Of a DNA stretch of 64,000 nt, positions 38,241 through 64,000 are shown one piece after another (position 1 is the stretch's first letter; the number at the start of each line of letters is the position of its first letter). The stretch spans positions 182,315-246,314 of the forward strand of contig JBAZGN010000001.1 of the NCBI GenBank assembly GCA_041652815.1. The letters are read 5' to 3'. The notes under the pieces are model-generated. The model saw only the letters and a list, made by a program, of their open reading frames with translations. It was not told where the DNA came from and made no database searches. This DNA comes from Candidatus Omnitrophota bacterium (GTDB taxonomy: Bacteria; Omnitrophota; Gorgyraeia; Duberdicusellales; 4484-171). Both the position numbers and the translations under genes were made by a program.

Positions 38241-38424
38241 ATTTACTCCTAATGAGCACATCATTTTTCCAAGCTGCCTGTCCAGACAGGCGCGCAGAAA
38301 AAATGATAGTGCGAATTATCCCGAAGTGCTCTCAAAAAATATCGAACGAGTACTTGCGTAGAGAGATTTTTTGAGTATACAGGCACTTCGGGATTTTTCA
38401 TATCCCCAACAAAAATTCTTAACC

Positions 38425-43728: not shown

Positions 43729-43740
43729 GTGGATAATTAA

Positions 43741-45033: not shown

Positions 45034-45034
45034 G

Positions 45035-46867: not shown

Positions 46868-46924
46868 ATTTTTTAATTATCTAAAATTATAGCAAGCAAT
46901 CTCAAGCTTTGGTTGTTAAAACCC

Positions 46925-49398: not shown

Positions 49399-49414
49399 GT
49401 TTGCATTATATTGA

Positions 49415-49966
49415 TTAGTTATTTGTCCTTATTGTAATTAAACTTATGGCCATGGAGAAGAGTAGTAAGGTGTTAACGATATTCAACCATACTATTGCGC
49501 TAAAAAATATAGCAGGAATCAAGTTGAACTTTATCGATACTGCAATAATCCCGGCAATCACTCCTAAAAAAATAAAAATAGACGCAACAAACTTCATAAC
49601 ACCCTCCCTTGTTTTATCAAAGGTATTCGCTATCCTCTTATTTATAGTATTTTTGTAATCGTCTTTTAAATCCAAAAATTCAACAGCCACATCAAAACCG
49701 CCTATTTTCATGCTTTTTGAGCGCAAAACTCGCGCATTAACTTTAATGGCGTCAGGGGAAGAGGGAAAATTTATATTTAACTCTAATACACTTTTAGGTT
49801 TTATATATTCGGCTGAATGGAAAAGAACACCGCCGGCGCTGATATTACGCACAAAAGAAAGAACTCCTTCTTTATTCTTTTCATCGCCACATACCTTATA
49901 TTTAAGAAGGTGATAAGCCGTAAGCCTTAAAAACCGTCTTTTGTTTTTTGAAAATAAAATTGTCAT
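49415..49966 (-). CDS. Stand-alone PilZ-domain protein with C-terminal membrane anchor
   Basis: RRFLRL (RxxxR) and NISAGGVLF (D/NxSxGG), with two C-terminal TM helices. Confidence 0.6.
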   Translation of the reverse strand: MTILFSKNKRRFLRLTAYHLLKYKVCGDEKNKEGVLSFVRNISAGGVLFHSAEYIKPKSVLELNINFPSSPDAIKVNARVLRSKSMKIGGFDVAVEFLDLKDDYKNTINKRIANTFDKTREGVMKFVASIFIFLGVIAGIIAVSIKFNLIPAIFFSAIVWLNIVNTLLLFSMAISLITIRTNN

Positions 49967-51702
49967 TGCGCTTTATATCCTAATTTTAAGTCTATTTCTT
50001 TAAGATACCAAGAGGTTCGCCTAAATTTGGGTTGTAATGATTCTACTTTCATAAACTCTTTTCTTGCTTCTTCATAGTTTCCGAGGACAAAATAAATTAT
50101 TCCCAGGTTATAATAGGCTTCTGTGTAATTTGAGTTTAACGCTGTCGCTTTTTTTAAGCTATCCTTGGCCCCATTATAGTTACCTTGCGCCCATAACACA
50201 TATCCTAAATTATTATAAGCATAATTATATCTAGGATTAATATTCAGTGCTTTCCTGAAATAAATTCTCGCAAGATTATAATTTTTATTAAAAATATAAA
50301 GTGTCGCTAAATTATAATTAAAGATGTAGGAAGCAGGATAGATATTGATTGTTTTTCTATATTGCTCAATAGCCTCATCCACTTTATTAAGATTAAAATA
50401 TATGAAACCTAAATTGGCAGTTGCCTCGTAATCGCGGGGATTAATGTTTACGGCCTTTATACCTTCTGCTATTGCATCATCCGGTCTTTTTAAAAAATAA
50501 AAACATAAAGCTTTACCTATGTATGATGTGCTGTGTTTTGGATAAACACCAAGAGCTAAATCAAATTTTCCTAACGCATCTACATATTTTTGGTCCAAAG
50601 ACATTTTAAATCCTGTTTCAAGTAGCTGAAATCCTTCTTTACAATACTGCCAAGCCATATCAGGATTAATTTTATGTTCAATATAGGGGCTAAGATCTGA
50701 GAATGGTTCATTCTTTTTTATCTTAAGAAAAGCTTCTTGCGCTCTTGCGGGTTCTTTTAAATCATATAAATAAGCATATGCTGCGCGAAATTGTGAAAGC
50801 TGTGGTATTTCTAAAGATGGTTCAAGTTTAAAAAGCTCTTCAAACAAAGCTATCGCCTTATCTATCTGTCCAGATCTATACAAACAATCAGCTTCCTGGT
50901 AATAAGCAAACGATCGCCATTGCCCAGACAATTTATCTTTAATCTTGTTAAAAATTTCCGCTGATTTCTCAAACTCTTTTTTCGCCTTATAAAGAACGCC
51001 TAAAAAGAATTCTGCTTTTATCGTTTTATCGTTTTCTCGATTGAGCTCTATTGCCTTATTAAAATATTGTTCCGATAAATCCCAATCTTTTAGCAATAAA
51101 TATTGTTTAGCTATCTCTATATATTTATCCTGTAACTTTTCATCTTTGTATTTATGCAAATTTTTCTCAAGCTTCGCAATTCGAGATTTTAATAGGCCGA
51201 CATTGGCTGCCCTTTGACCCGGAAATAATTTTATAGCTATATCCTCGAGAAAAGAAAAAATAATGGGGCGGTTTTTTATTTCTTTATTAATAGCTTCTTT
51301 AATGAAATGTTTTATATCGCTAATTTGGGTGTCTGTTGAGATTTTTTCAGCAATCACAGCTGCAAAATCTATATTAGTAGCAGATGTTAGTTCGAACGTG
51401 TATCCTTTAGCTTGGATATTTTCTTTTAACCCCTGATCAATGATTAGCTGGGAAATTCCTACTTTTGCAGAAAAAGCAAGGTCAAAATCTCCCTTGACTA
51501 ATTCATCAAGGAAAGAATCGTCTAAAATAGACGTTAGTTTTTTTACGTCATTTAAAGTAGTTGCTTTATCTAAATCATTGAGGCATATTTTAAGATTAGC
51601 CAAAGATGCATCCAACAGATAATGGTTATAGCCTAGAAAAAAAATAAATGCAGCAAAAAAAGTAATAAATAATGGGACGAAATGACGAAATATTTTTTTC
51701 AT
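49963..51702 (-). CDS. Multi-TPR repeat protein with N-terminal TM helix
   Basis: Ten or more TPR units in the C-terminal half (AYYNLGIIYFVLGNYEEA...). Confidence 0.7.
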   Translation of the reverse strand: MKKIFRHFVPLFITFFAAFIFFLGYNHYLLDASLANLKICLNDLDKATTLNDVKKLTSILDDSFLDELVKGDFDLAFSAKVGISQLIIDQGLKENIQAKGYTFELTSATNIDFAAVIAEKISTDTQISDIKHFIKEAINKEIKNRPIIFSFLEDIAIKLFPGQRAANVGLLKSRIAKLEKNLHKYKDEKLQDKYIEIAKQYLLLKDWDLSEQYFNKAIELNRENDKTIKAEFFLGVLYKAKKEFEKSAEIFNKIKDKLSGQWRSFAYYQEADCLYRSGQIDKAIALFEELFKLEPSLEIPQLSQFRAAYAYLYDLKEPARAQEAFLKIKKNEPFSDLSPYIEHKINPDMAWQYCKEGFQLLETGFKMSLDQKYVDALGKFDLALGVYPKHSTSYIGKALCFYFLKRPDDAIAEGIKAVNINPRDYEATANLGFIYFNLNKVDEAIEQYRKTINIYPASYIFNYNLATLYIFNKNYNLARIYFRKALNINPRYNYAYNNLGYVLWAQGNYNGAKDSLKKATALNSNYTEAYYNLGIIYFVLGNYEEARKEFMKVESLQPKFRRTSWYLKEIDLKLGYKAQ

Positions 51703-52181: not shown

Positions 52182-53498
52182 TCATATCGATTCAGCATCT
52201 TTTCTTTGATCTAAAACAAAACAACTACGTGCAAGTTTTTTTGCTTTCTTCTTAATTTCTGCAGCAATATTTGTAACTTCTGCATAGCTTGTTATAAGAC
52301 GATGTTCGTTGGTAACACCGGCCAAAGAGATAGTCATTATCGGAAATTCGTGTATTGCCCCATCGCGGCTTTGCGCTACGATAAATCCCCTTTCTAAATC
52401 TTCTGCATCATACAAAGAAAGGACTCGTTTGTCAAATTCTAAAGTGATATAATCTGCAATCAATTGGGCTTTATCGGGAGTTGTCAAGAGTATAAAATCG
52501 TCTCCGCCTTCATGACCGATAAAATCATTGTTATTACCTTTATTTTTTATAGCATCCTTAAACAATTGCCCTGTAAGTTTTATTGCATCATCTCCTTTTG
52601 CAATACCATACTTATCATTAAAAGCTTTAAAATTGTCTAAATCACAGTAAATTACCATGAATTTTTTATCTTCATTTATCCTTTTTTCGATTTCCTCACG
52701 TATGACTATATTACCGGGTAGTTTTGTTAATGGGTTTGCGTCTTCTGCCTTTGCTTTCATTTTCGCTAACTCTTCAGTCATAAAATTAAAAGTTCTGGCA
52801 AGCTGCTCCAGCTCATCATTCGTTGAAATATTAACCCTTAAATCCAAACGACCAGATGCAATAATTTTTGCGGCTGCATTAAAAACCTTTATCGGCACGA
52901 TGATTAATCGTGAAAAAAATATACCTAAAATAATATTTAAAAAAATAAATATTGCACCTATAGTAAATGCTGGTTGATAAACCTGCATATATGCACTGTG
53001 CATATCGCTTAGAGAAAAGGATAATTTAACTACATAATTATCGTTGTTGCTTCCTTTTAAGAAAACATATTTGAAAAAAAACTTAGCATTTTTATCGATA
53101 AATATTTCTTTCTCCGAAGTCACCCCTTTGTTTATTTTATCTACAACATAAATATCATCAAAATTGCCTTTCTGTCCTTGTAAAAAATTATTTGTTGAAA
53201 AAATAATTTTTGCTTCTTTATCTAATATGTAAGCCTGTGTTATTTCTTCCGATTCTTTTAGTTCTGTTAATTTTTTTTCTAAATAACTAAGCTGGTTTTC
53301 GGGAAGTAGATTAAAACCTATAATTTTTTCCCAAGTGTTTGTTAAAATTAACGAAACGATAGTTGCGCGGAAAGTATTAAACTTATTTATTATTTTTAAT
53401 TCATGGAAAAGTTGGACGCCAACGAATAATGTTATAGTTAATATAGTAAATGTTACAAGAAGGATAATGATTCTGTTTTTTAATGTCATGGTCCGCAT
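52182..53498 (-). CDS. Membrane sensor: periplasmic domain + HAMP + GGDEF-family domain with GGDDF signature
   Basis: Two TM helices flanking a ~150-aa extracytoplasmic domain, a HAMP linker (AAAKIIASGRLDLRV...LARTFNFMTEELAKMKA), then NPLTKLPGN, DLDNFKAFNDKYG and GGDDF. Confidence 0.75.
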   Translation of the reverse strand: MRTMTLKNRIIILLVTFTILTITLFVGVQLFHELKIINKFNTFRATIVSLILTNTWEKIIGFNLLPENQLSYLEKKLTELKESEEITQAYILDKEAKIIFSTNNFLQGQKGNFDDIYVVDKINKGVTSEKEIFIDKNAKFFFKYVFLKGSNNDNYVVKLSFSLSDMHSAYMQVYQPAFTIGAIFIFLNIILGIFFSRLIIVPIKVFNAAAKIIASGRLDLRVNISTNDELEQLARTFNFMTEELAKMKAKAEDANPLTKLPGNIVIREEIEKRINEDKKFMVIYCDLDNFKAFNDKYGIAKGDDAIKLTGQLFKDAIKNKGNNNDFIGHEGGDDFILLTTPDKAQLIADYITLEFDKRVLSLYDAEDLERGFIVAQSRDGAIHEFPIMTISLAGVTNEHRLITSYAEVTNIAAEIKKKAKKLARSCFVLDQRKDAESI

Positions 53499-53504
53499 AT
53501 GATG

Positions 53505-54641
53505 CTATTTAACATCTATTTTAATCGGATCAAAACTATTTTTTATTATTTTGAAAATTATGCCCAGCATATCTTTTGAAATATCGGGGGATTTTAAAAA
53601 TTCCCACAAGAGAGTCGTGTGGTTTTCAAAATCTCCCATTTTTTCTATTATATCAGTTTTTTTCTTGATAAAATTAAATATCTTTTCAATATCATTATCT
53701 GCTAACTTGGCAAAAATATTCCGCGCCTTTAAAGCTATGCCTATTTCTTTTCCGAACTTCTTCGTCCAAAGCGAATCGTAGTCGTTAAATCTCTCATTCA
53801 TGATACATTCGCAAAGTATTTCTGCAGCACGCATACCCATATATATTCCGCCGTATGTCAGCGGTTTTACCTGCGAAGCACTGTCGCCGACTAAAAATAA
53901 CCGTTCCTTAGATAATGAGTTAAAATGCGTTAAAGGAACAAGGCCGGCAAATTTTTCCAATATCTTACCCTTTAAGTTGATCTCCTTAACAAAATCAAGA
54001 AGATCCTGATAGGGATTTTTTGAAAGTACCCCCACACGAATAATTTCGGCTGATTCGGGTATAATCCAGTAAAAATATGGCCTTTTCACGTAAACTTCGA
54101 CCATATCGCTATAGCGGGGCCTAAGCTGCATACGAAACTGCACGCCTTTTAAATATTCCATATGATTGGGGCTGATAAAATCTCTAAGCGTAGATTTTGC
54201 TCCTTCGGCGGCAACTACAATATCAGCCTCTAAACATCCTTTGTCGGTTTCAATAAGATAGCTTTTATCTTTTTTTTCCAATCCCAGGAACCGATTGTCA
54301 AACATAATATCCAAGTTCTCTCCTAACTTTTTGTCAAATCTTTCTCTGTCGATAACATAGGCAACTTCTTTTCTTCTAAGAGGAATTTTATTCTTACCTA
54401 TATAAATAACTGCACCGTTAATGGTGTTAAGAATGCAATCTTGGGAAATAGGAATTTTTGTTTCTTCAAAAACTTTTTTACCAACCAATCCTGCGCAATG
54501 GACGGGTTTACCTATTTCCTTATGTTCTTCGATAAGCAAAGGCCGAATACCTTCTCTTTGTAAAAGTTGGCCAAGATAACAACCAATAGGGCCTGCGCCG
54601 ATAATAACCGTATTTTTCTGTTTTCTCATAATATAGAACAA
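53505..54641 (-). CDS. Geranylgeranyl-reductase-family FAD-dependent oxidoreductase
   Basis: N-terminal FAD fold VIIGAGPIGCYLGQLLQREG...CAGLV. Length and internal blocks resemble GGR/ChlP-type reductases. Confidence 0.6.
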   Translation of the reverse strand: MFYIMRKQKNTVIIGAGPIGCYLGQLLQREGIRPLLIEEHKEIGKPVHCAGLVGKKVFEETKIPISQDCILNTINGAVIYIGKNKIPLRRKEVAYVIDRERFDKKLGENLDIMFDNRFLGLEKKDKSYLIETDKGCLEADIVVAAEGAKSTLRDFISPNHMEYLKGVQFRMQLRPRYSDMVEVYVKRPYFYWIIPESAEIIRVGVLSKNPYQDLLDFVKEINLKGKILEKFAGLVPLTHFNSLSKERLFLVGDSASQVKPLTYGGIYMGMRAAEILCECIMNERFNDYDSLWTKKFGKEIGIALKARNIFAKLADNDIEKIFNFIKKKTDIIEKMGDFENHTTLLWEFLKSPDISKDMLGIIFKIIKNSFDPIKIDVK

Positions 54642-54658
54642 TGATTACGGAAATTTTT

Positions 54659-55306
54659 CTACAGTTCGCTTTCTACTTTCTTTTTAAAATTTATTAATAA
54701 ATAAGTAAATTTATTTCCCCTACGTTCCCACATACCCCTGAAAGTGACCAGAAAAGATATAAAAATGATATAGAGGTCCAACAAAAAACTCTGATGCTTA
54801 ATATACCATATGTCGTATTTAAACTTCTCGGTACGGTTGATGTCGCGCGCAGCTAATATTTGTGCTACGCCGGTTAATCCCGGCATAACCGATAGGCGTT
54901 GTTCAGCACCTTTGAATTCCCAGATGCTTCTCGGTGTTTTATCGCCTGCATCAATCTCAACCATCCTTAAAGCTTTGGGCCCGACAAAACTCATTTCACC
55001 TTTTAGTATATTGACTAATTGAGGCAATTCGTCTAAAGCGGTAGCTCTTAATATTCTGCCAAAACGCGTTATCCTTGTATCATTTTCTTTTGCTTGAAGC
55101 GGGCCAACTTCTTTGTCGGCATTAGTTACCATGGAACGAAATTTTATGATTTTAAAAATCTTACCATTTTTACCTACCCTTTCCTGAGAGTAAAAAATAT
55201 GATTTTCATCTTCTATCCAAATCAAGATACCGAAAAGGAACCAAATAGGCAAGCTGATTAATAAACCTGATAGCGCCAGAAAAAAGTCAAATAATCTCTT
55301 TGTCAT
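54659..55306 (-). CDS. Initiating phosphoglycosyl transferase (PglC/WbaP C-terminal-domain type, Bac_transf)
   Basis: One N-terminal re-entrant helix; KIIKFRSM; DELPQLVNILKGEMSFVGP. Confidence 0.8.
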   Translation of the reverse strand: MTKRLFDFFLALSGLLISLPIWFLFGILIWIEDENHIFYSQERVGKNGKIFKIIKFRSMVTNADKEVGPLQAKENDTRITRFGRILRATALDELPQLVNILKGEMSFVGPKALRMVEIDAGDKTPRSIWEFKGAEQRLSVMPGLTGVAQILAARDINRTEKFKYDIWYIKHQSFLLDLYIIFISFLVTFRGMWERRGNKFTYLLINFKKKVESEL

Positions 55307-55485
55307 AAACCAAATTTCAAAAATTTATGCCTTAATATCTGTAACAAAAAATTTGCCAACATGTTTGTTCATCTGTTGATTTATCAGATTCAACATCCAA
55401 CAATGTTTCGGGAAATTTTTGATTAAACACAATTAGGAAATTGCGCTTTTTAACAAAAAACAATGGCTCCTTTATAAATTAATTT

Positions 55486-56643
55486 CTAAATAGTTTTTCC
55501 TAAATATCTACGAATATAATATGGCGCTATCCGTAAAATGTGTTTAATATTTTTTACTGGCTTATATAATAACGAAGTTCTGTAATTAGCGCCAAAATCG
55601 CAGAAACAATTTCTGCATTCTCTAAAATATATATCACTCTTAAAAATCTTTTTATATTCTTCTGCTGCTTTTTTCCAGATGTTGGCGATATCGCCTTTTT
55701 CTATATTTTCTATCGGCCCGATATGGGTACATGCTAATATATCTCCATTATAATTAATATGAAGATAATTATACGGCGTGGAGCACATAAATCCTTTCAT
55801 AATTTTTTTAAAAAACAATTTATCGGTTTTTGCATATTTAAAATAATCCGTTATCCATAATCGCAAGAAAGGCAATGTTGTAGACATTCTGGCTTCCTTT
55901 GCTGTTCGTAGAGCGTCTGAAATATATGTAGTAAGTTCATCCAAATATGGCGTATCTATATAAAAGGAATCCTTTTCCATTTTTTCTGTCTTATAATCAA
56001 CAAAGATTGGATCAATGCATACTGGCTGAAAATTTATATGGCGTATTTTTTTAAGAGACACTGCCCATTTTATTAAAGCCGATAAATCCTTATAATTCTG
56101 TTTACTAATTACTGTTGACAAGCAATAATTTGTCTTTATGGCTTCCGATTTTTTGGAAGCCATAAATAATTCTATATCATGGAAAAGCCCTGCTTTGCCA
56201 CGGAAATTATCCTGCCTATTCGCGTCAGGATAATCTACAGAAATAATAATACGCCTTATGTTAGCCCGATTCAAAATAATTATTTGTTCATTGGATAATG
56301 TATTTAATGTGCTGCCATTTGTAGTTATGGCGCTAATGACTAATGAATTCCTATAACATAAGTCCAAAAGATACCATAAATTATGTGCCATGAAAGGTTC
56401 ACCGCCGGTAATATAAACATCCTTCACCTTCATCGTAATCATCGCTTCTACGATTTTATCTAATTGAGAAATAGATAATTCTTTATGGGGGTGAGTTTCG
56501 TTTTTAATATTTGAGATTCCGATATCACAAAATTTACATTTGAGATTACAATTATTTGTCAAATACAATATAACTTCAATCGGCGAAAAGGGTCTATAGA
56601 AATGGTTGACAAATGATTTAATTATCTTATTTACCTGCAACAC
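55486..56643 (-). CDS. Radical SAM enzyme with C-terminal SPASM/twitch-like cysteine cluster
   Basis: CNLKCKFC (CxxxCxxC) near the N-terminus, and C-terminal CTHIG...CRNCFCDFG cysteines. Confidence 0.75.
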   Translation of the reverse strand: MLQVNKIIKSFVNHFYRPFSPIEVILYLTNNCNLKCKFCDIGISNIKNETHPHKELSISQLDKIVEAMITMKVKDVYITGGEPFMAHNLWYLLDLCYRNSLVISAITTNGSTLNTLSNEQIIILNRANIRRIIISVDYPDANRQDNFRGKAGLFHDIELFMASKKSEAIKTNYCLSTVISKQNYKDLSALIKWAVSLKKIRHINFQPVCIDPIFVDYKTEKMEKDSFYIDTPYLDELTTYISDALRTAKEARMSTTLPFLRLWITDYFKYAKTDKLFFKKIMKGFMCSTPYNYLHINYNGDILACTHIGPIENIEKGDIANIWKKAAEEYKKIFKSDIYFRECRNCFCDFGANYRTSLLYKPVKNIKHILRIAPYYIRRYLGKTI

Positions 56644-56729: not shown

Positions 56730-58121
56730 TTATAAATTTACAATATTTGTTCTTTGCGTTATTTTCCAATTTTGTATGGCTAAATTAAATGTTGCCATAA
56801 TAAAACTAATATGGAACCAAAACATATTTACTAAAAATTGGTCGTCTACTGTATTAATAAAAATAGAGACTACAAAGGCAGAAAACATACCGACTACGTG
56901 AGCATTAAGGCTCAGTGCAGTATTTCCAGAGAACCGTATTGCTCTAAAACCTAACGAAAAAATTCTTACTAACAGTAATATTATGGAAATTAAGCCTAAA
57001 ATTCCTATATCAGCTAATGAGCGTATAAAAATATTAGTTACCCAAAATTCTCCTTCAGCGGTACTTGGGCTACTCCCTATCAAGGGGTGTTCCCTCCACG
57101 CTCGAAAACCATAATCCCAAGTAGTCATACGCGCCTGCATAGTTTCTGTTTGAAAATTTATATCTTTAGAATAACGCTGAGTTAACATTTCCTTTATACC
57201 ACTATATTGATCTATGTCTTTGGTTATCAATGCATTGAATAGTGCAACAAAAATAAAACCGCCGATTACTAATCCCATGGATCTCCGCACAAAAACCACA
57301 GTTTTATTCTGAATAGATAAAATAAACCAGCTGAAACATAACGAAATAACTATACCCAGAAAAGCTGACCTTTTGAAAGATAATAACATTGCCACAATAA
57401 ATATAAGAAGAAATAAATATTTCTTTTTTACTGAAAGAAAGGTGGAACGAATATACAAATGATTAAGTATAATAATCGTAAAAAACATCATCTGTAAACC
57501 GAAATAGTCACCCGCTTCATGTTGCATACCGACTATCCGCCCACCCAAATCTGTACTGATTCCACCTATATTAATATTGAGCATAATGAATAAAATATAA
57601 GCAATCACCCCATATATTGCCGAAATTATCCCTAACCAAATATAATATTTTAAGATACGTTCATAAATTTCCCTGCTATTTAATAGGCCCATCACGGCGA
57701 AAATAGGGCAAAAAATCACAACAGAAATAAGAGTTGTCTGCAAACTACGGGAAACATTGGTTGAATTAAATATAGTAGAAATTAAACTAATGATGATAAA
57801 AAGTGATAACGGTAAAAATAAACGATTACTAAAAATTATGTGCTTATATTTTATGCTAAATAACCATTTAAAAAATAAAAGCAAGCCCATAATTTGGCTT
57901 GGTCTAATGCGAAAATTTGAAAATTCCCAAACAAAAGTATCCAAGAATAGAGAAAATATAAAAAGATATAAAAAAAATTCCGCCGGTAGGCTAATAAATA
58001 AACTTATGCTCAGTAAACTAACGATTACCCATAAAACTGCCGAAGTCTCCTTATCGTTGATAAAATAGATAATTAAAGACCCAATAACTAAAAAAACTAA
58101 AATGTATATTAAAATTTTCAT
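56730..58121 (-). CDS. Polytopic membrane protein, probable polysaccharide polymerase (Wzy/EpsG-like)
   Basis: Twelve or more TM helices with one large loop. No Wzy_C HN motif was found, so the assignment rests on topology and context. Confidence 0.4.
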   Translation of the reverse strand: MKILIYILVFLVIGSLIIYFINDKETSAVLWVIVSLLSISLFISLPAEFFLYLFIFSLFLDTFVWEFSNFRIRPSQIMGLLLFFKWLFSIKYKHIIFSNRLFLPLSLFIIISLISTIFNSTNVSRSLQTTLISVVIFCPIFAVMGLLNSREIYERILKYYIWLGIISAIYGVIAYILFIMLNINIGGISTDLGGRIVGMQHEAGDYFGLQMMFFTIIILNHLYIRSTFLSVKKKYLFLLIFIVAMLLSFKRSAFLGIVISLCFSWFILSIQNKTVVFVRRSMGLVIGGFIFVALFNALITKDIDQYSGIKEMLTQRYSKDINFQTETMQARMTTWDYGFRAWREHPLIGSSPSTAEGEFWVTNIFIRSLADIGILGLISIILLLVRIFSLGFRAIRFSGNTALSLNAHVVGMFSAFVVSIFINTVDDQFLVNMFWFHISFIMATFNLAIQNWKITQRTNIVNL

Positions 58122-58197: not shown

Positions 58198-59019
58198 TCA
58201 AACCCATAACTGAATCAAAACAGGCCTTCTGGAATACTGTGTAATTCCTCTAAGTTGATACCTATATTCTGGAACAATCTGCCTTATGAAACTTATCATC
58301 TCTTTATATTCATTGTCTCGATGATATGCAGCAATTACCATTTTAGGTTTATATTTTGAAATGATACCCTTAGCACCAATTAACATTTTCATTTCCCAGC
58401 CCTCTAAATCAGCTTTTATGTAAGTTATTCTACCTTTATCTTTCAATAAATTATCGAGAGTAGTTACTTTCACGTCCCCTTTTATTGATTCGACAACACT
58501 ATTATTAATTCTGTTTCCGGTTGTTTCTGCAAAGGCATCTTTATCTCCTATCGCAGTATTAAATAATTCTATTTTCCTCGGAATAAAGGTCTTAAAAGTT
58601 TTTTCTAAAGCACGGAGAAAAAATTTGTTAGACTCAATAATAAAAATATTTTTACACCTATTGACTATTGAAAGAGAAAACAATCCTTCGGCGGAACCAG
58701 CATCAACCACAATATCGTCTTTACTAATCTGGGTAGGTCCATATTCGTAATTATGCCAGTCACTTATATCAAAAGTTTCAGCACAGACTTGATATAAATC
58801 ATTTAAATTATATTCGCAAGGCAAATATAATTTATCTTGTATCGACTTAAAAGATATTTCTATAAAATCTTCTAAATAAGTAATATTCTTTATAAAATTG
58901 CGACCTGTGGTTTTAACCTGTGGTTTTTTAAGAAAATTAAATAACTCTCTTATTGTGATATTATAGCGGTCTTCAAACAGCCAAGAATACAATATCTTAA
59001 TCCTTCTATTAAGAATCAT
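58198..59019 (-). CDS. FkbM-family SAM-dependent methyltransferase
   Basis: VVDAGSAEGLFSL (SAM motif I) and IKADLEGWE, the FkbM hallmark. Confidence 0.7.
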   Translation of the reverse strand: MILNRRIKILYSWLFEDRYNITIRELFNFLKKPQVKTTGRNFIKNITYLEDFIEISFKSIQDKLYLPCEYNLNDLYQVCAETFDISDWHNYEYGPTQISKDDIVVDAGSAEGLFSLSIVNRCKNIFIIESNKFFLRALEKTFKTFIPRKIELFNTAIGDKDAFAETTGNRINNSVVESIKGDVKVTTLDNLLKDKGRITYIKADLEGWEMKMLIGAKGIISKYKPKMVIAAYHRDNEYKEMISFIRQIVPEYRYQLRGITQYSRRPVLIQLWV

Positions 59020-59081: not shown

Positions 59082-60293
59082 CTATGCTCTTTCTATCTTC
59101 GTTAACAAAAAATCTATAGCATTTGTTACTTCTTCGATGCTAATTATATCCATGCAAGCGCTTATACCATTTTTTGTATGTTTGCAATGAGACAAAGAGC
59201 AAGGGCGTTTACAAAAATAATCTTTTTTTACAATATAGACATTTTTTTGACAAGGGCCTGTAATATCGGGATCGGCAGGCCCGAAGATTGCAACGGTAGG
59301 CACAGAAGAAATACAAGCAAGATGCATTATGCTTGTATCTGGACAAACAAGTAAACTGGCTTTTCCTAGCAATATAGAAAGCTCGCTAATATTTAACCTA
59401 CCGCAAAGATTTATAACTTTATTGTTTTGCATTAGTTTAACAATTTTCTCTGTTAAGGGGGCTTCTTCTTTGCTCCCAGTCAATATAATATACCATGCAT
59501 ATTTGTTTTTTATAAAATCGGCCACCTTGGCATATCGGTTTAGTGACCATAATCTCTTATTTTGACTTGCGCCAGGGTGAATGATAGCGAAAAAATCGTT
59601 CTTTCTTAGGCCATAAGATTCGAAAACCTCTTCAGCTTTCTTAATGTCTTCACGACAATAATATATTTGAATTTTCTTATCAATTTTCTCAATACCGATT
59701 TGTTTGAGTAAATTAATTTTTCTTTGTATAATATGCAAAGATGCATCAAAAAACACCGGTTTGCTTAATAAATATGCTCCTCCTGTTCTATCGTAACTTA
59801 AAGTATATTTTACCTTTGGTAAAAAAAGAAAGAATATAATATTACGGATGTCCCCTCTCAAATCAATTCCCAGATCAAAATTTTTTGATTTTAATAGCTT
59901 AGATATCTCTTGGTAATGTTTCAAATATCGAAAACAATTAATTGCTTGCGAGAAATTTATCTGTTTAGAATATACCCAAGGACAACTCTCAACTATAATT
60001 TCGTCAATATAAGGATTGTTCTTTAAAATTTCACTGCCAATCGAGCTTACCAAAACCGACATACGAGCGGAAGGAAATTTATATTTTAATGCAGCGAAGA
60101 TTGGTATTGATATAATTACATCGCCTAACGGTTCTTCTTCTATAACAAGAATCTTTTGTGGATTGATTTTGGTTAACTCATTTTTTTTTATATCCCACAA
60201 ACCTAAAAATCTTCCAGAATAAAATATAATTTTACCGATGCAATCAAGGACTAATGCTATTTTTTTATTAACTGGGTTATCTATTTCAATCAT
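59082..60293 (-). CDS. Glycosyltransferase family 9 (heptosyltransferase-like) with a Cys-rich C-terminal tail
   Basis: ILVIEEEPLGDVIISIPIF is the GT9 N-terminus; C-terminal CKRPCSLSHCKHTKNGISAC. Confidence 0.65.
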   Translation of the reverse strand: MIEIDNPVNKKIALVLDCIGKIIFYSGRFLGLWDIKKNELTKINPQKILVIEEEPLGDVIISIPIFAALKYKFPSARMSVLVSSIGSEILKNNPYIDEIIVESCPWVYSKQINFSQAINCFRYLKHYQEISKLLKSKNFDLGIDLRGDIRNIIFFLFLPKVKYTLSYDRTGGAYLLSKPVFFDASLHIIQRKINLLKQIGIEKIDKKIQIYYCREDIKKAEEVFESYGLRKNDFFAIIHPGASQNKRLWSLNRYAKVADFIKNKYAWYIILTGSKEEAPLTEKIVKLMQNNKVINLCGRLNISELSILLGKASLLVCPDTSIMHLACISSVPTVAIFGPADPDITGPCQKNVYIVKKDYFCKRPCSLSHCKHTKNGISACMDIISIEEVTNAIDFLLTKIERA

Positions 60294-60385: not shown

Positions 60386-61534
60386 TTACTCTGGATTTAA
60401 GTAAATTCTTTTCTTCTTTTCCTTTTGGATCTCTTTATATACTTTAATTGTTTCTTTAGTAATCTTATCCCAATTATGCAAGTTGCGCACTGCTCTCGCA
60501 GCATTAAGCCCCACTTTTTTTACTATATCCTGCCGTTCTACGAGATATTTTAGCCGCTGGCTTAAATCATTTACATCATCAACTTTGAACGTAAAACCAA
60601 TAGTATAATCTTCTCCTATTTTACAATTCTGTAATATTTCAACATTAGCTGGGATATTGCTAGCTATAACACATCGACCAAACCACATAGCTTCTAATAA
60701 CGCTATACTCTGACCCTCTACGCGCGATGGATGAACATATAGAGCAGCATTAGCGTATAGAGTGGCTAATTCTTGACCAAAAACATATCCTGCAAAAACG
60801 GCTCTGTCTTTCCCAATCTCTTTAAGCTGTTGGATATAACTAAGGTGCTGTTTTGAATCCCCCACAACAGCTACTTTCAGTTTCTCCGGCAAACATTTTA
60901 CTGCTTTTAGAAGTATCTCTATCGCGCGATCTGGTATAATTCTACCTACAGTTAATATATAAAAACCGGCTTGTAAACCGTATCGTTCACATATATCTTG
61001 CCCACCTGGGTCAGGTAAACCCACGCCATTTGGGATAATGTAGGGTTGACGACCTGTAACGCGTTTAACTTCTAGGGCGAGGGGCGTAGATACAGCAATA
61101 AATCCGTCTGCTAAAGCAGCAGAGACTTTTAAACATAATCGGAGATAAATTCTCCCAAGGCTTCCCCATTGTGTTTCTTCCCAAGATGGAGCGTGAAGTG
61201 TACAAATCACTATAGGTTTAATCAAGGGGGACATTATTGCAAGCCATTGTATCCCCAAATTGTGTAAATGTATTATATCAAAATTGTCAAATTGAGCCAT
61301 CACAAATGAAATAAGAGAATGACTTATTGTTTCTAGATATCTAAAGGGGAACCTTGGAAGGCGAATTAATTTTACTCTTCCTAATCTTTCTTTTGATAAT
61401 GTATAATCATTTCGACAGAAGACCGTTACTTCATGCCCCTGTTCTGCTAATCTCCTGCTTAGATTCTCTACATGATGCTCAATGCCACCGTATTTTGCTG
61501 GTATACCTTTTAATCCCACAAAGGCTATTTTCAT
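60386..61534 (-). CDS. Glycosyltransferase family 4 (GT-B)
   Basis: EGQSIALLEAMWFGRCVIASN is the EX7E motif region. Confidence 0.8.
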   Translation of the reverse strand: MKIAFVGLKGIPAKYGGIEHHVENLSRRLAEQGHEVTVFCRNDYTLSKERLGRVKLIRLPRFPFRYLETISHSLISFVMAQFDNFDIIHLHNLGIQWLAIMSPLIKPIVICTLHAPSWEETQWGSLGRIYLRLCLKVSAALADGFIAVSTPLALEVKRVTGRQPYIIPNGVGLPDPGGQDICERYGLQAGFYILTVGRIIPDRAIEILLKAVKCLPEKLKVAVVGDSKQHLSYIQQLKEIGKDRAVFAGYVFGQELATLYANAALYVHPSRVEGQSIALLEAMWFGRCVIASNIPANVEILQNCKIGEDYTIGFTFKVDDVNDLSQRLKYLVERQDIVKKVGLNAARAVRNLHNWDKITKETIKVYKEIQKEKKKRIYLNPE

Positions 61535-62991
61535 GATTTACTCATTAACATCTTCAGAAATTTCAAGAACGTTGTCGCCTTATGCAAGCAATCTCCCGCT
61601 GAACGTATTTTCAATATCTGTCGAATAATCTTTTGGGGGCGACAATATTGATAAAAATAAGCCTTTTTCAAAAATTTCTTCATTTCCTCTCCACTAACAT
61701 TTGGCAGGGAAATTATTGCCTCCCTTGAATTATCAACAGGCATGAAATCGTTGGTGGGCGTAGTGAACCATCTGTTAGCTTTCACAATATCATAATATTC
61801 TGTATTTGGAAAAGGTAATATGATACCAAAATGGGTGAATCGAGTGTTTAGCTTGTTTGCTTCCCTAAGCGAATATGCTATATCCTCTTTAGTTTCCAAA
61901 GGCGATGCCCCCATAATTACCGATATCTCTGGCTCTATACCGCATTCTCTCAATGCATTGACAGCAATCTTAATATCTTCCGCTTTCATTTCCTTACGAA
62001 TATCATCGAGAATCGCCTGTCTAAAAGATTCGGTCCCCATATACACCAATTGACAACCTGCTTCTCGCATTGCTTTAAGTATTTCCTTATCATGCATTGC
62101 CGCTGCCCTCGCAAGACAAATCCATTGCAATCCTAAACCTTTTATCCCTTGGCAAATTTCCAATGTTCTTTCTTTGCCCCAAATAAATTGATTATCACAT
62201 ATCTCGACCCCTTTATAGCCCAATTTAGCGATATCTTTAAATTCCTCAATCACATGTTCTACTGAACGTAGACGAAGCGGCGGCCTGTTTGTGTATTTAA
62301 CTTGTCCTTTCTTATATTCTATTTCGATTGCCTGATCAATTGCGTTCGGTGCACAAAATTTACATCGAAAAGCACATCCGCGCGACACGCACATATTTGT
62401 TATCGGAAAAACATTTAGTCGATTGATTCTATATAATCCTTTATATAACCTTCGATCGGGTAGTGGCAAAGTATCTAAATTAACGAAACCTCTCGCTTTA
62501 TTATGATGCACCTCTCCATTTTTCAAGTATGAAATTCCACAAATATTCTGAAAATCTGGATTTTTAGTAGAAAAAAGTTCTTGGATAGTTCCCTCTGGCT
62601 CACCGCGAATGACTACATATCTTAAATCATATAAAAACATCTCTGGTTTCCATGTGGGTGAAGTTCCAGCAAAGACAAATTTTGTTTCGGGATAAAACTC
62701 CCCTATCATTTTAGCTGCCTTTAGATCATCTTCATTGGACAAATAGACTGTAAAAAAATAAACCCAGTCAAAAGCGTTTGTTCTAATGAAGTTTAAGAAT
62801 GCGTCTGTATTTATATTCTCAGCCCTACAATCCATAAGCCTGACTTCATGGCCTAATTGCTGTGCTACAGTTGCCTGACTTAACAAATGTACTGGGGGGG
62901 TATAGCCAAAACCATAATTGCAACCATAGGTCCGATCTGGAATGCCTTTCGGGTTAAAATCAACTGGCGGGACCAGAAATAATAGTCTCAT
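61531..62991 (-). CDS. B12-binding-domain radical SAM enzyme
   Basis: N-terminal Rossmann-like B12-binding-type domain (RLLFLVPP..., ...FVFAGTSP) and CVSRGCAFRCKFC (CxxxCxxC). Confidence 0.75.
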   Translation of the reverse strand: MRLLFLVPPVDFNPKGIPDRTYGCNYGFGYTPPVHLLSQATVAQQLGHEVRLMDCRAENINTDAFLNFIRTNAFDWVYFFTVYLSNEDDLKAAKMIGEFYPETKFVFAGTSPTWKPEMFLYDLRYVVIRGEPEGTIQELFSTKNPDFQNICGISYLKNGEVHHNKARGFVNLDTLPLPDRRLYKGLYRINRLNVFPITNMCVSRGCAFRCKFCAPNAIDQAIEIEYKKGQVKYTNRPPLRLRSVEHVIEEFKDIAKLGYKGVEICDNQFIWGKERTLEICQGIKGLGLQWICLARAAAMHDKEILKAMREAGCQLVYMGTESFRQAILDDIRKEMKAEDIKIAVNALRECGIEPEISVIMGASPLETKEDIAYSLREANKLNTRFTHFGIILPFPNTEYYDIVKANRWFTTPTNDFMPVDNSREAIISLPNVSGEEMKKFLKKAYFYQYCRPQKIIRQILKIRSAGDCLHKATTFLKFLKMLMSKS

Positions 62992-64000
62992 GCCTCTCCT
63001 TTCATTTTTGTCTTCATGTAGACTTCCTTAAAAACTCCTAATGTTTCTTTTGCTGCTTTTCTCCATAAAAACATCTCTGCGCGATTAAGTCCTTTTTGCT
63101 TAAGTTCTAATCTCAGATTATCATTTGATAAAACTTCATACATACCTCTGGCTATCTCCTCGACAGAAAAGGGGTTAACTAGTAAAGCTGCGTTCCCCGT
63201 TATCTCTGGTAGGGAAGAAATATTTGATGTTACTACAGGACAAGCGCAAGCCATAGCTTCTACCACAGGCAAACCAAAACCTTCGTAAATAGATGGGTAT
63301 ACAAAAATATCAGCCGCATTGTAAAAAAGGGGCAGTTCTTTCTCCGAAACATAACCAATAAATACTACTTCTTGCAGCAAATTTAAATCCTTAACTTTTT
63401 GAAGAACTTCATCATAACACCATCCTTTCGGACCGCATAAAACTAATTTGTGTTCAATAAGTTTCTCTTTTTTAAGTATATTAAAAGCGGAAATCAGCCT
63501 AATAAGATTCTTTCTTGGCTCTATAGTCCCCACATTTAAAATAAATTTAGGGAGTATATTGTATTTAATTTTAATCCAATTGATTTTATCAATATCGTTA
63601 ATTACTCTAAATATTCCCCTATTACAGCCATTGTAAACAGCTTTGATTTTTTTCGGGCTTATTTTTAATAATCTTGAAATTTCTTCTTTAGAAAAATTAG
63701 AAACGGTTAAAATCACCGTTGCCAATCTTTTTATTATGGGTATAGTGAGTTTTAAATAAATTAAAAAAAAAATCTGGACTGTTTCTGGATACCTAACGAA
63801 AGTTGCATCATGAATAGTAAAAATAACCGGGCATGGAGAAAATATTGGGCATAAGTATCCGGGGCAGAATAAAATATTTATTTTATCTTTTTTCAATAAA
63901 ATCGGTAAAGATATTTGTACCCAAAAAATAGTCCTTATCCAATTTAACAATATGATAAATATGTTTTTGCTATCTCCCAAAATAATTCTTTTCTTCTTTG
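62988..64000 (-). CDS. Glycosyltransferase family 4, 5' end beyond the window
   Basis: EGFGLPVVEAMACACPVVTSN. The frame stays open to the window edge; the ORF-track start is a TTG. Confidence 0.7.
   Translation of the reverse strand, partial: KKKRIILGDSKNIFIILLNWIRTIFWVQISLPILLKKDKINILFCPGYLCPIFSPCPVIFTIHDATFVRYPETVQIFFLIYLKLTIPIIKRLATVILTVSNFSKEEISRLLKISPKKIKAVYNGCNRGIFRVINDIDKINWIKIKYNILPKFILNVGTIEPRKNLIRLISAFNILKKEKLIEHKLVLCGPKGWCYDEVLQKVKDLNLLQEVVFIGYVSEKELPLFYNAADIFVYPSIYEGFGLPVVEAMACACPVVTSNISSLPEITGNAALLVNPFSVEEIARGMYEVLSNDNLRLELKQKGLNRAEMFLWRKAAKETLGVFKEVYMKTKMKGEA

What the first reader, a model, noticed from the sequence alone, without database searches (positions are those of the whole stretch)
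55486..56643. SPASM-type radical SAM and B12-binding radical SAM enzymes inside a glycan locus
SPASM/twitch rSAMs are best known for peptide maturation and anSME-type Cys/Ser oxidation. B12-rSAMs (61531-62991) typically catalyse C-methylation at unactivated carbons. Together with FkbM, this predicts unusual sugar chemistry, such as C-methyl branching or radical-mediated epimerisation or dehydration. Alternatively the SPASM enzyme may mature a protein component of the exporter.
Basis: partly seen in the sequence, partly recalled or inferred. Interest (0 to 1): 0.55.

Follow-up and report, generated by a model that had tools for sequence, protein, structure and literature searches.

The report
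Radical SAM enzymes tailoring a polysaccharide
Two uncharacterised radical SAM enzymes sit inside a surface-polysaccharide gene cluster of an uncultivated Omnitrophota bacterium, and their conserved pairing and occasional fusion with glycosyltransferases indicates that they modify sugars, by chemistry that is still unknown, rather than peptides.

Summary
55486-56643(-) encodes a 385-aa radical SAM protein with a Pfam SPASM hit. 61531-62991(-) encodes a 486-aa B12-binding-domain radical SAM protein. Both lie in a one-strand Wzy/Wza/Wzc-type glycan locus (about 42.8 kb to beyond 64 kb) of Omnitrophota MAG GCA_023227945.1.

Corrections and additions:
1. The "SPASM" enzyme lacks the canonical CX2CX5CX3C motif (0 of 24 relatives). 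It has C..GX4C..CX2CXC, which looks Twitch-like with one auxiliary cluster.
2. Its family is rare. In 7 independent loci it always sits in a glycan locus with a second radical SAM ("rSAM2") and one GT4 subfamily. One closer relative (30% identical) is fused to GT2.
3. In this window GT4+rSAM2 have been deleted. A frameshifted rSAM2 C-terminal remnant remains at 55306-55426.
4. The B12-type enzyme is nearest to HpnJ in sequence (below cut-off) and to AprD4 in fold, not to the methylases. It is always coupled to glycosyltransferases.
5. Its partner GT4b belongs to the same GT4 subfamily that elsewhere partners rSAM2. This suggests a swap of radical SAM partner within one GT sandwich.

No precursor peptide or RRE domain was found, and neither enzyme belongs to a housekeeping clade. 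I conclude that both are glycan-tailoring enzymes. C-methylation is possible but not favoured.

The parts
62988..64000 (-). GT4a glycosyltransferase, 5' end cut by the window edge; the real gene is 383 aa. It overlaps the B12-rSAM start by 4 nt.
   Evidence: Glycos_transf_1 E=1.7e-38. Full gene seen in L012 at 2505-3656. It scores 177 bits to the GT4 that lies upstream of rSAM2 in L006.
61531..62991 (-). HpnJ-like radical SAM protein (486 aa) with an N-terminal B12-binding-type domain. CX3CX2C is at C206/C210/C213.
   Evidence: PF02310 plus PF04055. HpnJ TIGR03471 scores 181.5 bits against a cut-off of 577.6, over the full length. All 21 relatives match HpnJ best. The model has pLDDT 92.2 and its nearest fold is AprD4 6fd2. 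More than 150 homologue clusters at 35-56% identity.
60386..61534 (-). GT4b glycosyltransferase, overlapping the B12-rSAM stop by 4 nt. It belongs to the radical-SAM-associated GT4 subfamily.
   Evidence: Glyco_transf_4 and Glycos_transf_1. It scores 137-228 bits to GT4s adjacent to B12-rSAM (L007, L008) and adjacent to rSAM2 (L001, L003, L005, L006, L015), against at most 73 bits to other GT4s.
59082..60293 (-). GT9 (heptosyltransferase-family) glycosyltransferase.
   Evidence: PF01075 E=2.1e-34. 64% identical to the syntenic gene in L001.
58198..59019 (-). FkbM-family SAM methyltransferase.
   Evidence: PF05050 and TIGR01444. 65% identical to the syntenic gene in L001. An FkbM gene also lies directly upstream of rSAM1 in the ENA contig.
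56730..58121 (-). Wzy_C-family polymerase/ligase-like membrane protein.
   Evidence: PF04932 E=4.5e-11. 57% identical to the syntenic gene in L001.
55486..56643 (-). rSAM1: Twitch-like radical SAM protein (385 aa). CX3CX2C is at C32/C36/C39. Conserved C-terminal cysteines are C287, C305 (GX4C) and C343-x2-C346-x-C348; C96 is also invariant.
   Evidence: Model pLDDT 86.5. Nearest folds are BlsE, SkfB, SuiB, anSME and DesII. About 24 close clusters among 5.8e9 proteins.
55306..55426 (-). Frameshifted remnant of the C-terminus of the partner radical SAM gene (rSAM2). GT4 and about 280 codons of rSAM2 have been deleted.
   Evidence: tblastn with L001 rSAM2: residues 281-305 match 55426-55352 (12/25 identical) and residues 307-320 match 55347-55306 (11/14), collinear and in two frames, E=7e-5. 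Scores are 78 and 53, against shuffle means of 27.8±3.9 and 23.2±2.9. The sequence is identical in two further assemblies.
54659..55306 (-). Short (215 aa) polyprenyl-phosphate glycosyl-phosphotransferase, the initiating enzyme.
   Evidence: Bac_transf E=2.8e-60. TIGR03025 scores 225 bits, below its 295.55 cut-off.
53505..54641 (-). Geranylgeranyl-reductase-family flavoprotein.
   Evidence: TIGR02032 scores 156.3 bits against a cut-off of 158.8. The L001 orthologue is 54% identical and scores 160.6 bits.
52182..53498 (-). HAMP-GGDEF membrane protein, a probable c-di-GMP input.
   Evidence: PF00990 and PF00672. Syntenic in L001.
42808..51702 (-). Export and regulation part of the locus: TPR protein (49963-51702), PilZ (49415-49966), BBP2_2 beta-barrel (47770-49398), Poly_export/SLBB Wza-like (46925-47773), Wzz/GNVR/AAA_31 Wzc-like (45035-46867), a second Wzy_C (43741-45033) and a TPR-like protein (42808-43728).
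   Evidence: The same order is seen in L001, L002, L012 and L013.

Best explanation
The window carries a Wzy-dependent exopolysaccharide or capsule locus of an Omnitrophota bacterium, probably regulated by c-di-GMP. Both radical SAM proteins are glycan-tailoring enzymes that work together with glycosyltransferases.

Shown:
- rSAM1 (55486-56643) belongs to a rare clade with a truncated, Twitch-like C-terminal domain. Five conserved cysteines are enough for one auxiliary [4Fe-4S] cluster, not two.
- This clade occurs only in glycan loci, normally next to a second radical SAM (rSAM2), one particular GT4 subfamily and the initiating phosphotransferase. One clade member (P0167, 30% identical to rSAM1) is fused to GT2.
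- The B12-domain enzyme (61531-62991) belongs to a larger family that is sister to HpnJ. It is always translationally coupled to glycosyltransferases, and here it is sandwiched between GT4a and GT4b.
- GT4b belongs to the same GT4 subfamily that partners rSAM2 elsewhere.
- The window has lost its own GT4-rSAM2 pair; only a remnant is left.

Inferred:
- The GT4a/B12-rSAM/GT4b cassette functionally replaces the GT4/rSAM2 pair. This would be a non-orthologous swap of radical SAM partner within one GT sandwich (compare L006: GT4a-like / rSAM2 / GT4b-like).
- Mechanistically, each enzyme would reductively cleave SAM and use the 5'-deoxyadenosyl radical to abstract a hydrogen from a sugar carbon. 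The substrate would be an early polyprenyl-diphosphate-linked intermediate or its nucleotide-sugar donor.
- The outcome would be an oxidation, epimerisation, dehydration or ring rearrangement, as in BtrN, DesII, BlsE, AprD4 and HpnJ. The neighbouring GT4b-type transferase would then extend the product.
- The FkbM enzyme would add an ordinary O-methyl group. The exact reaction is not determined.
For: - Domains and cysteine motifs.
- Conserved context of rSAM1 in 7 independent loci from two phyla. Every locus has rSAM2 and the GT4 subfamily, and six of the seven show a PGT (none in L001/L002 or in the genes scanned in L015).
- Synteny of L001 with the window at 54-66% protein identity.
- The rSAM2 remnant.
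- Fusions: P0167 is GT2 plus an rSAM1-like domain (274 bits). P0195, P0201 and P0216 are GT2 plus two rSAM-SPASM domains. L011 carries an rSAM-SPASM-GT4 protein of 802 aa. All named examples come from Omnitrophota.
- The B12-rSAM is adjacent to or overlaps a GT in all 4 contexts: window.
- The GT4 subfamily block scores 137-479 bits within the block against at most 85 bits outside it, with no split by partner type. GT4a resembles the GT4 upstream of rSAM2 in L006.
- Loci with rSAM1/rSAM2 lack the B12-rSAM, and vice versa; the window is the only exception.
- HpnJ is the best model for all 21 relatives.
- HpnJ and Cds are genetic precedents for radical SAM enzymes that remodel lipid-linked hexoses: PMC13459092.
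Against: - There is no biochemical evidence for any member of either family. I found no characterised precedent for radical SAM enzymes in Wzy-type polysaccharide assembly.
- Structural neighbours also include peptide maturases (SkfB, SuiB, anSME) with similar scores.
- The multi-domain fusions are distant, at 80-105 bits per domain. The closer GT2-rSAM1 fusion is seen once, on a 4.6-kb contig.
- The cassette-swap idea rests on few loci: 3 B12 contexts and 5-6 rSAM2 contexts.
- With its usual partner rSAM2 gone, rSAM1 could be an orphan on its way to loss, although the ORF is intact and keeps every invariant residue.
- Cobalamin binding and the number of auxiliary clusters are inferred from sequence only.
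Confidence: 0.6

Rival explanations
1. One reading: the B12-domain enzyme is a cobalamin-dependent C-methyltransferase that makes a C-methyl-branched sugar. FkbM would add a further methyl group.
For: The B12-binding Pfam domain scores above its cut-off. The fold also resembles the cobalamin methylases CysS, MgmA, TsrM and TokK (Foldseek E=1e-18 to 1e-16). From general knowledge, most characterised class-B enzymes are methylases.
Against: The best family match for all 21 relatives is HpnJ, followed by BchE and AprD4, none of which is a methylase. Methylase models score 55-66 bits against cut-offs of 600-650 (PhpK, HpnR). The nearest solved structure is AprD4, a diol dehydratase. As I recall, AprD4 does not bind cobalamin.
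Confidence: 0.2
2. The SPASM-type enzyme is a peptide or protein maturase (RiPP, anSME-like, or acting on an exporter component) that merely sits in the locus.
Against: No credible small ORF flanks the gene; the two ORFs in the 180-nt gap are the rSAM2 remnant read in its two frames. CX3CX2C begins at residue 32, so there is no N-terminal RRE-sized domain. No conserved small gene accompanies the family in the 7 loci. Family members are fused to GT2 and GT4. No sulfatase is in the locus. The 74-aa ORF is on the opposite strand, 3.3 kb away, has a signal-peptide-like N-terminus and only two Cys, both within that stretch.
Confidence: 0.04
3. The radical SAM enzymes modify the lipid carrier or a lipid anchor of the glycan rather than a sugar. 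They would act together with the geranylgeranyl-reductase-family flavoprotein.
Against: The reductase is absent from L003, L005, L006, L015 and the ENA contig, which all keep rSAM1, rSAM2 and GT4. The invariant partners are glycosyltransferases, including fusions to them. HpnJ itself is thought to act on the sugar head group, not the lipid (PMC13459092).
Confidence: 0.08
4. rSAM1 in this genome is a functionless leftover. Its obligatory partner pair (GT4 and rSAM2) was deleted, and only the B12-rSAM cassette is active.
For: rSAM2 accompanies rSAM1 in every other locus examined. Here it is reduced to a frameshifted remnant of about 40 codons.
Against: The rSAM1 ORF is full length and retains all 46 invariant columns of the family alignment. 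It is identical or near-identical in three assemblies. The remnant is about as diverged from L001 (23/39 identical) as intact orthologues are, so the deletion cannot be dated from it.
Confidence: 0.1

Closest known systems
BlsE (cytosylglucuronate decarboxylase, PDB 7VOB) and DesII (PDB 8HZY): radical SAM enzymes acting on sugar nucleosides and nucleotide sugars
   Different: Only 15-18% identity, and sequence similarity is confined to the core. Both are antibiotic-pathway enzymes rather than parts of polysaccharide assembly, and neither is linked to glycosyltransferase fusions. rSAM1 has five conserved C-terminal cysteines.
Twitch-domain radical SAM enzymes acting on sugars and cyclitols (BtrN dehydrogenase; HygY/NeoN-type epimerases, from memory)
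   Different: rSAM1 is much longer than BtrN, with an inserted helical region at 209-285. It has an extra conserved Cys348 and an invariant Cys96. There is no sequence-level family match, and cluster content is untested.
HpnJ (TIGR03471), hopanoid-associated B12-domain radical SAM
   Same: It is the best-scoring family for the 486-aa enzyme and for all 21 relatives, aligned end to end (residues 48-478 against model positions 45-466 of 472). Like HpnJ, which follows the glycosyltransferase HpnI, the enzyme sits beside glycosyltransferases. HpnJ is proposed to contract a lipid-linked glucosamine ring to a cyclitol ether (PMC13459092).
   Different: The score of 181.5 bits is far below the 577.6 cut-off. 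I detected no hopanoid genes in the window. The neighbours are GT4 or WecG-type transferases in polysaccharide loci. The HpnJ reaction itself has never been reconstituted.
AprD4 (PDB 6FD2), radical SAM 1,2-diol dehydratase of apramycin biosynthesis
   Same: It is the nearest solved structure to the 486-aa enzyme (Foldseek E=2.5e-22, TM 0.73-0.80; phmmer E=5e-17). It has the same two-domain layout and an aminosugar substrate.
   Different: 19% identity. The NF033070 model scores 77 bits against a cut-off of 500. It is an antibiotic-pathway enzyme acting on a free pseudodisaccharide.
SPASM maturases (anSME, PqqE, SuiB, SkfB)
   Different: The CX2CX5CX3C motif and the seventh Cys are absent in 24 of 24 close and 103 of 103 wider relatives. 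There is no RRE and no precursor. The genomic partners are glycosyltransferases.
Calditol synthase Cds (Sulfolobus), a radical SAM enzyme acting on a lipid-linked hexose
   Same: It is a genetic precedent for a radical SAM enzyme that remodels a sugar already attached to a lipid after a glycosyltransferase step (PMC13459092).
   Different: The substrate there is an archaeal membrane lipid head group, not a polymer repeat unit.

Membership tests
Radical SAM superfamily | CX3CX2C cluster motif and PF04055 core, with a GGE-type SAM-binding motif | tested here: met
   rSAM1: C32/C36/C39 and TGGEP at 79-83; PF04055 scores 61.9 bits. B12-type enzyme: C206/C210/C213; PF04055 scores 64.3 bits.
SPASM subfamily (two auxiliary clusters) | Seven-Cys motif CX9-15GX4C-gap-CX2CX5CX3C-gap-C (definition from memory of Haft & Basu 2011 and Grell et al. 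2015) | tested here: not met
   Only C287..G-x4-C305..C343-x2-C346-x-C348 is present. CX2CX5CX3C is found in 0 of 24 close and 0 of 103 wider relatives, and no conserved Cys follows the motif. The Pfam SPASM HMM itself is matched (33.8 against 21.5 bits).
Twitch subclass (one auxiliary cluster) | Truncated SPASM: beta-hairpin plus helix, with 3-4 Cys ligating a single auxiliary cluster | tested here: inconclusive
   The motif and the predicted hairpin (E293-296, E301-303) plus helix H319-335 fit. Cluster number cannot be determined in silico.
RiPP-maturing radical SAM enzymes | Adjacent precursor peptide gene and usually an N-terminal RRE (PqqD-like) domain | tested here: not met
   No conserved small ORF. 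Only 31 residues precede the cluster motif. No PqqD/RRE Pfam hit.
anSME / MoaA / HemN housekeeping clades | Score above the NCBIfam equivalog cut-off | tested here: not met
   MoaA 71.7 against 284.05. HemN 17.4 against 324.95. HemW 32.7 against 205.4. BchE 89 against 481.35. anSME is not among the 25 best of 70 hits shown.
HpnJ (TIGR03471) | Equivalog score of at least 577.6 bits and a hopanoid (shc, hpnH/I/K) gene context | tested here: not met
   181.5 bits. I detected no hopanoid genes among the window ORFs scanned. The neighbours are GT4 genes.
Class B (cobalamin-dependent) radical SAM enzymes | N-terminal Rossmann-type B12-binding domain preceding the radical SAM core | tested here: met
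   PF02310 36.3 bits against 32.1, at residues 30-139. The fold matches OxsB, TsrM, TokK, CysS and AprD4.
Class B (cobalamin-dependent) radical SAM enzymes | Actual cobalamin binding | not testable with these tools
   The nearest fold, AprD4, has the same domain but, as I recall, binds no cobalamin. About a third of homologue clusters lack a precomputed PF02310 hit.
B12-dependent radical SAM methyltransferases (PhpK, HpnR, KedN5, TsrM-like) | Score above the family cut-off | tested here: not met
   PhpK 65.9 against 600. HpnR 54.7 against 650. KedN5 32.6 against 700. Trp 2-C-methyltransferase 16.4 against 500.
Wzx/Wzy-dependent polysaccharide locus | Initiating phosphotransferase, glycosyltransferases, Wzy polymerase, Wza/Wzc export pair and a Wzx flippase | tested here: inconclusive
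   PGT, 4 GTs, 2 Wzy_C, Poly_export and Wzz/GNVR/AAA_31 are present. No Polysacc_synt flippase is in the window. An ABC_membrane+ABC_tran gene lies just upstream of the window.

The most novel reading that the evidence does not exclude
One GT4 subfamily is dedicated to a radical-rearranged sugar. Either rSAM2 or the HpnJ-like enzyme would convert a lipid-linked hexose or hexosamine, installed by the upstream GT4, into a carbocyclic (cyclitol-type) or otherwise skeleton-rearranged residue within a polysaccharide repeat unit, as proposed for HpnJ and Cds on membrane lipids. This would give ether-type linkages resistant to glycosidases and acid. rSAM1 would add a second radical modification. If so, this would be a widespread and unrecognised class of radical chemistry in bacterial surface polysaccharides, given that the rSAM2 family has about 3,000 clusters.
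Probability: 0.1. Interest if true: 0.85.

Novelty: new variant of a known kind. Interest (0 to 1): 0.55.

Why it matters
Radical SAM enzymes that tailor sugars are known from antibiotic pathways and from two lipid head-group pathways. I found no characterised example in Wzy-type polysaccharide assembly. I also found no description of a glycosyltransferase subfamily that is systematically paired, and sometimes fused, with radical SAM domains.

The partner family rSAM2 is very large (2,961 clusters at E≤1e-20) and highly conserved (59-67% identity among the 119 closest clusters listed, whose named members span several phyla). It occurs in at least one cultured bacterium, Geomobilimonas luticola. 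This makes the question experimentally approachable.

If the chemistry is new, for example carbocycle formation or radical epimerisation or dehydration on lipid-linked glycans, it would add a new type of sugar to bacterial surface glycans. It would also explain part of the glycosyltransferase/radical SAM domain co-occurrence noted in Omnitrophota proteins. If the chemistry is ordinary oxidation or epimerisation, the result is still a useful functional assignment for three unannotated families.

Tried and rejected
- Precursor search: all ORFs of at least 20 aa around rSAM1 gave only two overlapping ORFs in the 180-nt gap. Both turned out to be the two frames of the rSAM2 remnant.
- The 74-aa ORF at 51950-52174 has a positional homologue in L001 (29% identity, E=0.004). 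It has a signal-peptide-like N-terminus and no core motif, so I rejected it as a substrate.
- Housekeeping clades (MoaA, HemN, BchE, NirJ/AhbD) were rejected on scores.
- Sequence search of the PDB aligned only the radical SAM core, so it gave no information on the auxiliary domain.
- The promoter/terminator scan was at chance level: 62 against 53±8 promoter-like sites and 10 against 6.5±2.5 terminator-like sites. Operon structure therefore rests only on strand and gene spacing.
- Seven literature searches returned no paper whose title or abstract describes a characterised radical SAM enzyme of this kind in polysaccharide loci. This is absence from an open-access library only.
- The afdb50 fold library was unavailable.
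- P0001 could not be located by exact look-up. The source contig was found through cluster member P0310 instead.
- The GTDB pattern scan for rSAM1 found only 2 loci. Its sensitivity is limited by the two peptide patterns used.
- I could not obtain model coordinates, so I did not check whether the five cysteines cluster in space.
- I did not compare with the Cds sequence, because the paper and sequence were not held.
Full report
OBSERVATION. The two genes exist as described. ORF 55486-56643 (minus strand, 385 aa, GTG start) matches Radical_SAM (E=1.1e-16), Fer4_12 and the Pfam SPASM domain (E=4.1e-8), each above its gathering score. ORF 61531-62991 (minus, 486 aa) matches B12-binding (36.3 bits against 32.1) and Radical_SAM. 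Every gene from 42.8 kb to the window end is on the minus strand. In transcription order these are:
- GT4a (cut by the window edge)
- the B12-type radical SAM
- GT4b
- GT9
- an FkbM methyltransferase
- Wzy_C
- the SPASM-hit radical SAM ("rSAM1")
- a 180-nt gap
- a short Bac_transf phosphotransferase
- a geranylgeranyl-reductase-family flavoprotein
- HAMP-GGDEF
- (a small opposite-strand ORF)
- TPR, PilZ, a BBP2_2 barrel, Poly_export/SLBB, Wzz/GNVR/AAA_31, a second Wzy_C and a TPR-like protein.

GT4a/B12-rSAM and B12-rSAM/GT4b each overlap by 4 nt, read directly from the coordinates. The window is 99.995-100% identical to contig JALOCC010000001.1 of the Candidatus Omnitrophota MAG GCA_023227945.1 and to an ENA metagenome contig. 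Upstream of the window lie the rest of GT4a, a GT1, a GT2 and an ABC transporter. The rest of the window (1-42 kb) holds unrelated housekeeping genes, and I detected no hopanoid or cobalamin genes among the ORFs scanned.

WHAT rSAM1 IS. No curated family claims it. The best NCBIfam scores are about 72-74 bits (WgkB, AhbD, N-terminal Twitch family, MoaA), against cut-offs of 170-650. A search of 5.8 billion proteins found only about 24 clusters at E<1e-65, then a drop to E=5e-12; the named ones are Omnitrophota. A profile search of 1.84 billion representatives found 109 at E≤1e-30. A pattern scan of 185,579 GTDB species representatives found two loci, one in Omnitrophota and one in Thermodesulfobacteriota.

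The family alignment shows CX3CX2C (C32, C36, C39), an invariant C96, and the C-terminal cysteines C287, C305 (in GX4C) and C343-x2-C346-x-C348. The canonical SPASM block CX2CX5CX3C is absent from 24 of 24 close relatives and from 103 of 103 single-domain representatives of the wider clade. No conserved cysteine follows the motif. By the defining motif, as I recall it from the SPASM/Twitch literature, this is a truncated, Twitch-like domain able to hold one auxiliary cluster.

CONTEXT DECIDES THE SUBSTRATE CLASS. I examined seven independent loci that carry an rSAM1 relative: L001/L002, L003/L004, an ENA contig, L005, L006, L015 and the window itself. In all of them the gene lies in a polysaccharide locus. 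In every locus except the window it is accompanied within a few genes by two partners:
- a second radical SAM of 300-335 aa with its own Twitch-like motif ("rSAM2"; a 414-aa version in the ENA contig);
- a GT4 with weak DUF1972 similarity.

A Bac_transf initiating enzyme is usually present as well. L001, from another Omnitrophota MAG, is syntenic with the window at 54-66% protein identity from GT9 to PilZ.

Members of the wider clade are fused to glycosyltransferases:
- P0167 is GT2 plus an rSAM1-like domain (274 bits to the family profile).
- P0195, P0201 and P0216 are GT2 followed by two radical SAM/SPASM domains.
- An Omnitrophota Wzm/Wzt-type locus (L011) carries such a fusion together with an 802-aa radical SAM-SPASM-GT4 protein.

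A 2026 preprint independently lists radical SAM with GT1 and starch-synthase domains as a Pfam co-occurrence module in Omnitrophota giant proteins, without assigning a function (10.64898/2026.06.07.730766).

No small conserved ORF accompanies the family, and only 31 residues precede the cluster motif, so there is no room for an RRE. The peptide/protein-maturase reading is therefore unlikely.

A DELETED PARTNER. The 180-nt gap between rSAM1 and the phosphotransferase contains, in two reading frames, a collinear match to the last 40 residues of rSAM2:
- LIKNFPKHCWMLNLINQQMNKHVGK against L001 residues 281-305;
- LLQILRHKFLKFGL-stop against residues 307-320.

The combined E-value is 7e-5. The scores are 78 and 53, against shuffle means of 28±4 and 23±3. 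One cluster cysteine is already replaced. The lineage of the window has therefore lost about 2 kb carrying GT4 and most of rSAM2. The same sequence is present in two further assemblies. rSAM2 itself is a very large family: 2,961 clusters at E≤1e-20, with the 119 closest listed clusters 59-67% identical and their named members spanning several phyla. It includes the cultured Geomobilimonas luticola and is uncharacterised. rSAM1 is thus a rare add-on to a common rSAM2-GT4 module.

WHAT THE B12-TYPE ENZYME IS. Its best model is HpnJ (181.5 bits, end to end, cut-off 577.6). BchE (89) and ApyD and AprD4 (77 each) follow. The methylase models PhpK and HpnR reach 55-66 bits against cut-offs of 600-650. 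All 21 relatives tested behave the same way. The model (pLDDT 92.2) is closest to AprD4, the aminoglycoside 1,2-diol dehydratase (TM 0.73-0.80). The cobalamin enzymes CysS, MgmA, OxsB, TsrM and TokK come next.

The family has more than 150 clusters at 35-56% identity, in Omnitrophota, Sumerlaeota, Planctomycetota, Myxococcota and others. In the three other contexts read, the gene overlaps or abuts a glycosyltransferase:
- B12-rSAM/GT4 in L007;
- GT4/B12-rSAM/GT4 in L008;
- B12-rSAM/WecG in a Myxococcota genome.

According to a 2026 review, HpnJ is required for conversion of glucosaminyl-bacteriohopanetetrol to the cyclitol ether, and is proposed but not shown to contract the sugar ring. The calditol synthase Cds is a similar case (PMC13459092). 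The enzyme is not HpnJ, given its score and context. Its nearest relatives and nearest fold nevertheless point to non-methylating sugar chemistry.

ONE GT4 SUBFAMILY, TWO RADICAL PARTNERS. An all-against-all comparison of 20 GT1/GT4-type transferases from these loci gives one clean block. It consists of window GT4b, the GT4s downstream of the B12-type enzyme in L007 and L008, and the GT4s adjacent to rSAM2 in L001, L003, L005, L006 and L015. Within the block the scores are 137-479 bits; to any other GT4 they are at most 85 bits. B12-coupled and rSAM2-coupled members are as similar to each other as they are within each class.

Window GT4a is related (177 bits) to the GT4 upstream of rSAM2 in L006. 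L006 therefore reads GT4a-like / rSAM2 / GT4b-like, and the window reads GT4a / B12-rSAM / GT4b. Loci with rSAM1 and rSAM2 lack the B12-type enzyme, and vice versa; the window alone has rSAM1, the B12-type enzyme and a dead rSAM2. I infer a non-orthologous replacement of the radical SAM partner inside a conserved glycosyltransferase sandwich. This inference rests on few loci.

MECHANISM (INFERRED). Both enzymes would generate a 5'-deoxyadenosyl radical and abstract hydrogen from a sugar carbon. The substrate would be an early lipid-linked intermediate (the genes cluster with the initiating enzyme and second-sugar-type GT4) or its nucleotide-sugar donor. The GT4b-type transferase would then act on the product. 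Candidate outcomes are oxidation, epimerisation, dehydration or ring rearrangement. C-methylation by the B12-type enzyme remains possible, at about 0.2. FkbM probably O-methylates. The flavoprotein is lineage-specific and may act on the lipid carrier or on a sugar; I did not resolve this.

COMPARISON AND NOVELTY. The closest known systems are sugar-tailoring radical SAM enzymes of antibiotic pathways (BlsE, DesII, BtrN, AprD4) and lipid head-group remodellers (HpnJ, Cds). Neither window enzyme is a member of any curated family, and the full SPASM definition is not met. I found no characterised precedent for radical SAM enzymes in Wzy-type polysaccharide assembly, nor for the pairing with a GT4 subfamily. 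These searches covered an open-access library only. I classify the finding as a new variant of a known kind, with interest 0.55. It is real, coherent and testable, but the chemistry is unknown and all the evidence is comparative.

Noticed in passing
window 55306-55426 (-): Frameshifted remnant of a second radical SAM gene (rSAM2). Its stop codon abuts the start of the phosphotransferase gene. One conserved cluster cysteine is already replaced (NC..NCWM has become NFPKHCWM).
   Followed up: yes
L001 12305-13267; proteins P0312-P0431: The rSAM2 family is very large (2,961 clusters at E≤1e-20), with the 119 closest listed clusters 59-67% identical and their named members spanning several phyla, including the cultured Geomobilimonas luticola. 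It matches no curated NCBIfam model above cut-off. It was adjacent to the same GT4 subfamily in all 5 loci where I compared the GT4s.
   Followed up: partly
L011 10001-13540 and 19762-23540: An Omnitrophota Wzm/Wzt (ABC-transporter-type) glycan locus carries a 1,179-aa GT2 + radical SAM + radical SAM protein, a 299-aa rSAM2-like gene, a 371-aa protein whose only recorded Pfam hit is SPASM, and an 802-aa radical SAM-SPASM-GT4 fusion.
   Followed up: partly
window 53505-54641 (-): A geranylgeranyl-reductase-family flavoprotein (TIGR02032 at 156.3 bits against a cut-off of 158.8) sits inside the glycan operon and is conserved in L001/L002, but is absent from the other rSAM1 loci. It might saturate the polyprenol carrier or a lipid anchor.
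   Followed up: no
window 51950-52174 (+): A 74-aa opposite-strand ORF has a signal-peptide-like N-terminus. It is called as a gene in two assemblies and has a weak positional homologue in L001 that shares a K-x-LKDF-x-IT motif.
   Followed up: partly
L001 3137-4308: An IS element (HTH_Tnp_1 plus rve transposase) lies upstream of the GT9 genes in L001, close to where the window instead has the GT4a/B12-rSAM/GT4b cassette. This suggests a rearrangement hot spot. GC content is slightly higher at 60-64 kb (0.35-0.36) than at 50-60 kb (0.31-0.34).
   Followed up: no
window 43741-45033 (-) and 56730-58121 (-): The locus has two Wzy_C-family membrane proteins, and no Polysacc_synt (Wzx) flippase lies within the window. 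An ABC_membrane+ABC_tran gene lies just upstream of the window end (L012 1-68).
   Followed up: no
window 52182-53498, 49415-49966, 10725-11663: A HAMP-GGDEF protein and a PilZ protein are embedded in the glycan locus. A separate FIST / histidine kinase / receiver-GGDEF set lies at 8024-11663. Together these suggest c-di-GMP control of polysaccharide production.
   Followed up: no
window 29508-31481 (-): A 657-aa ORF has no Pfam match at E≤1e-5.
   Followed up: no
window 36944-40728 (-) and 6133-7842 (-): HypD is confirmed by Pfam. The adjacent 767-aa ORF (38425-40728) was not scanned; it resembles the hydrogenase maturation factor HypF by eye only. A ShlB/FhaC-type two-partner-secretion transporter lies at 6133-7842. 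None of these is related to the finding.
   Followed up: no
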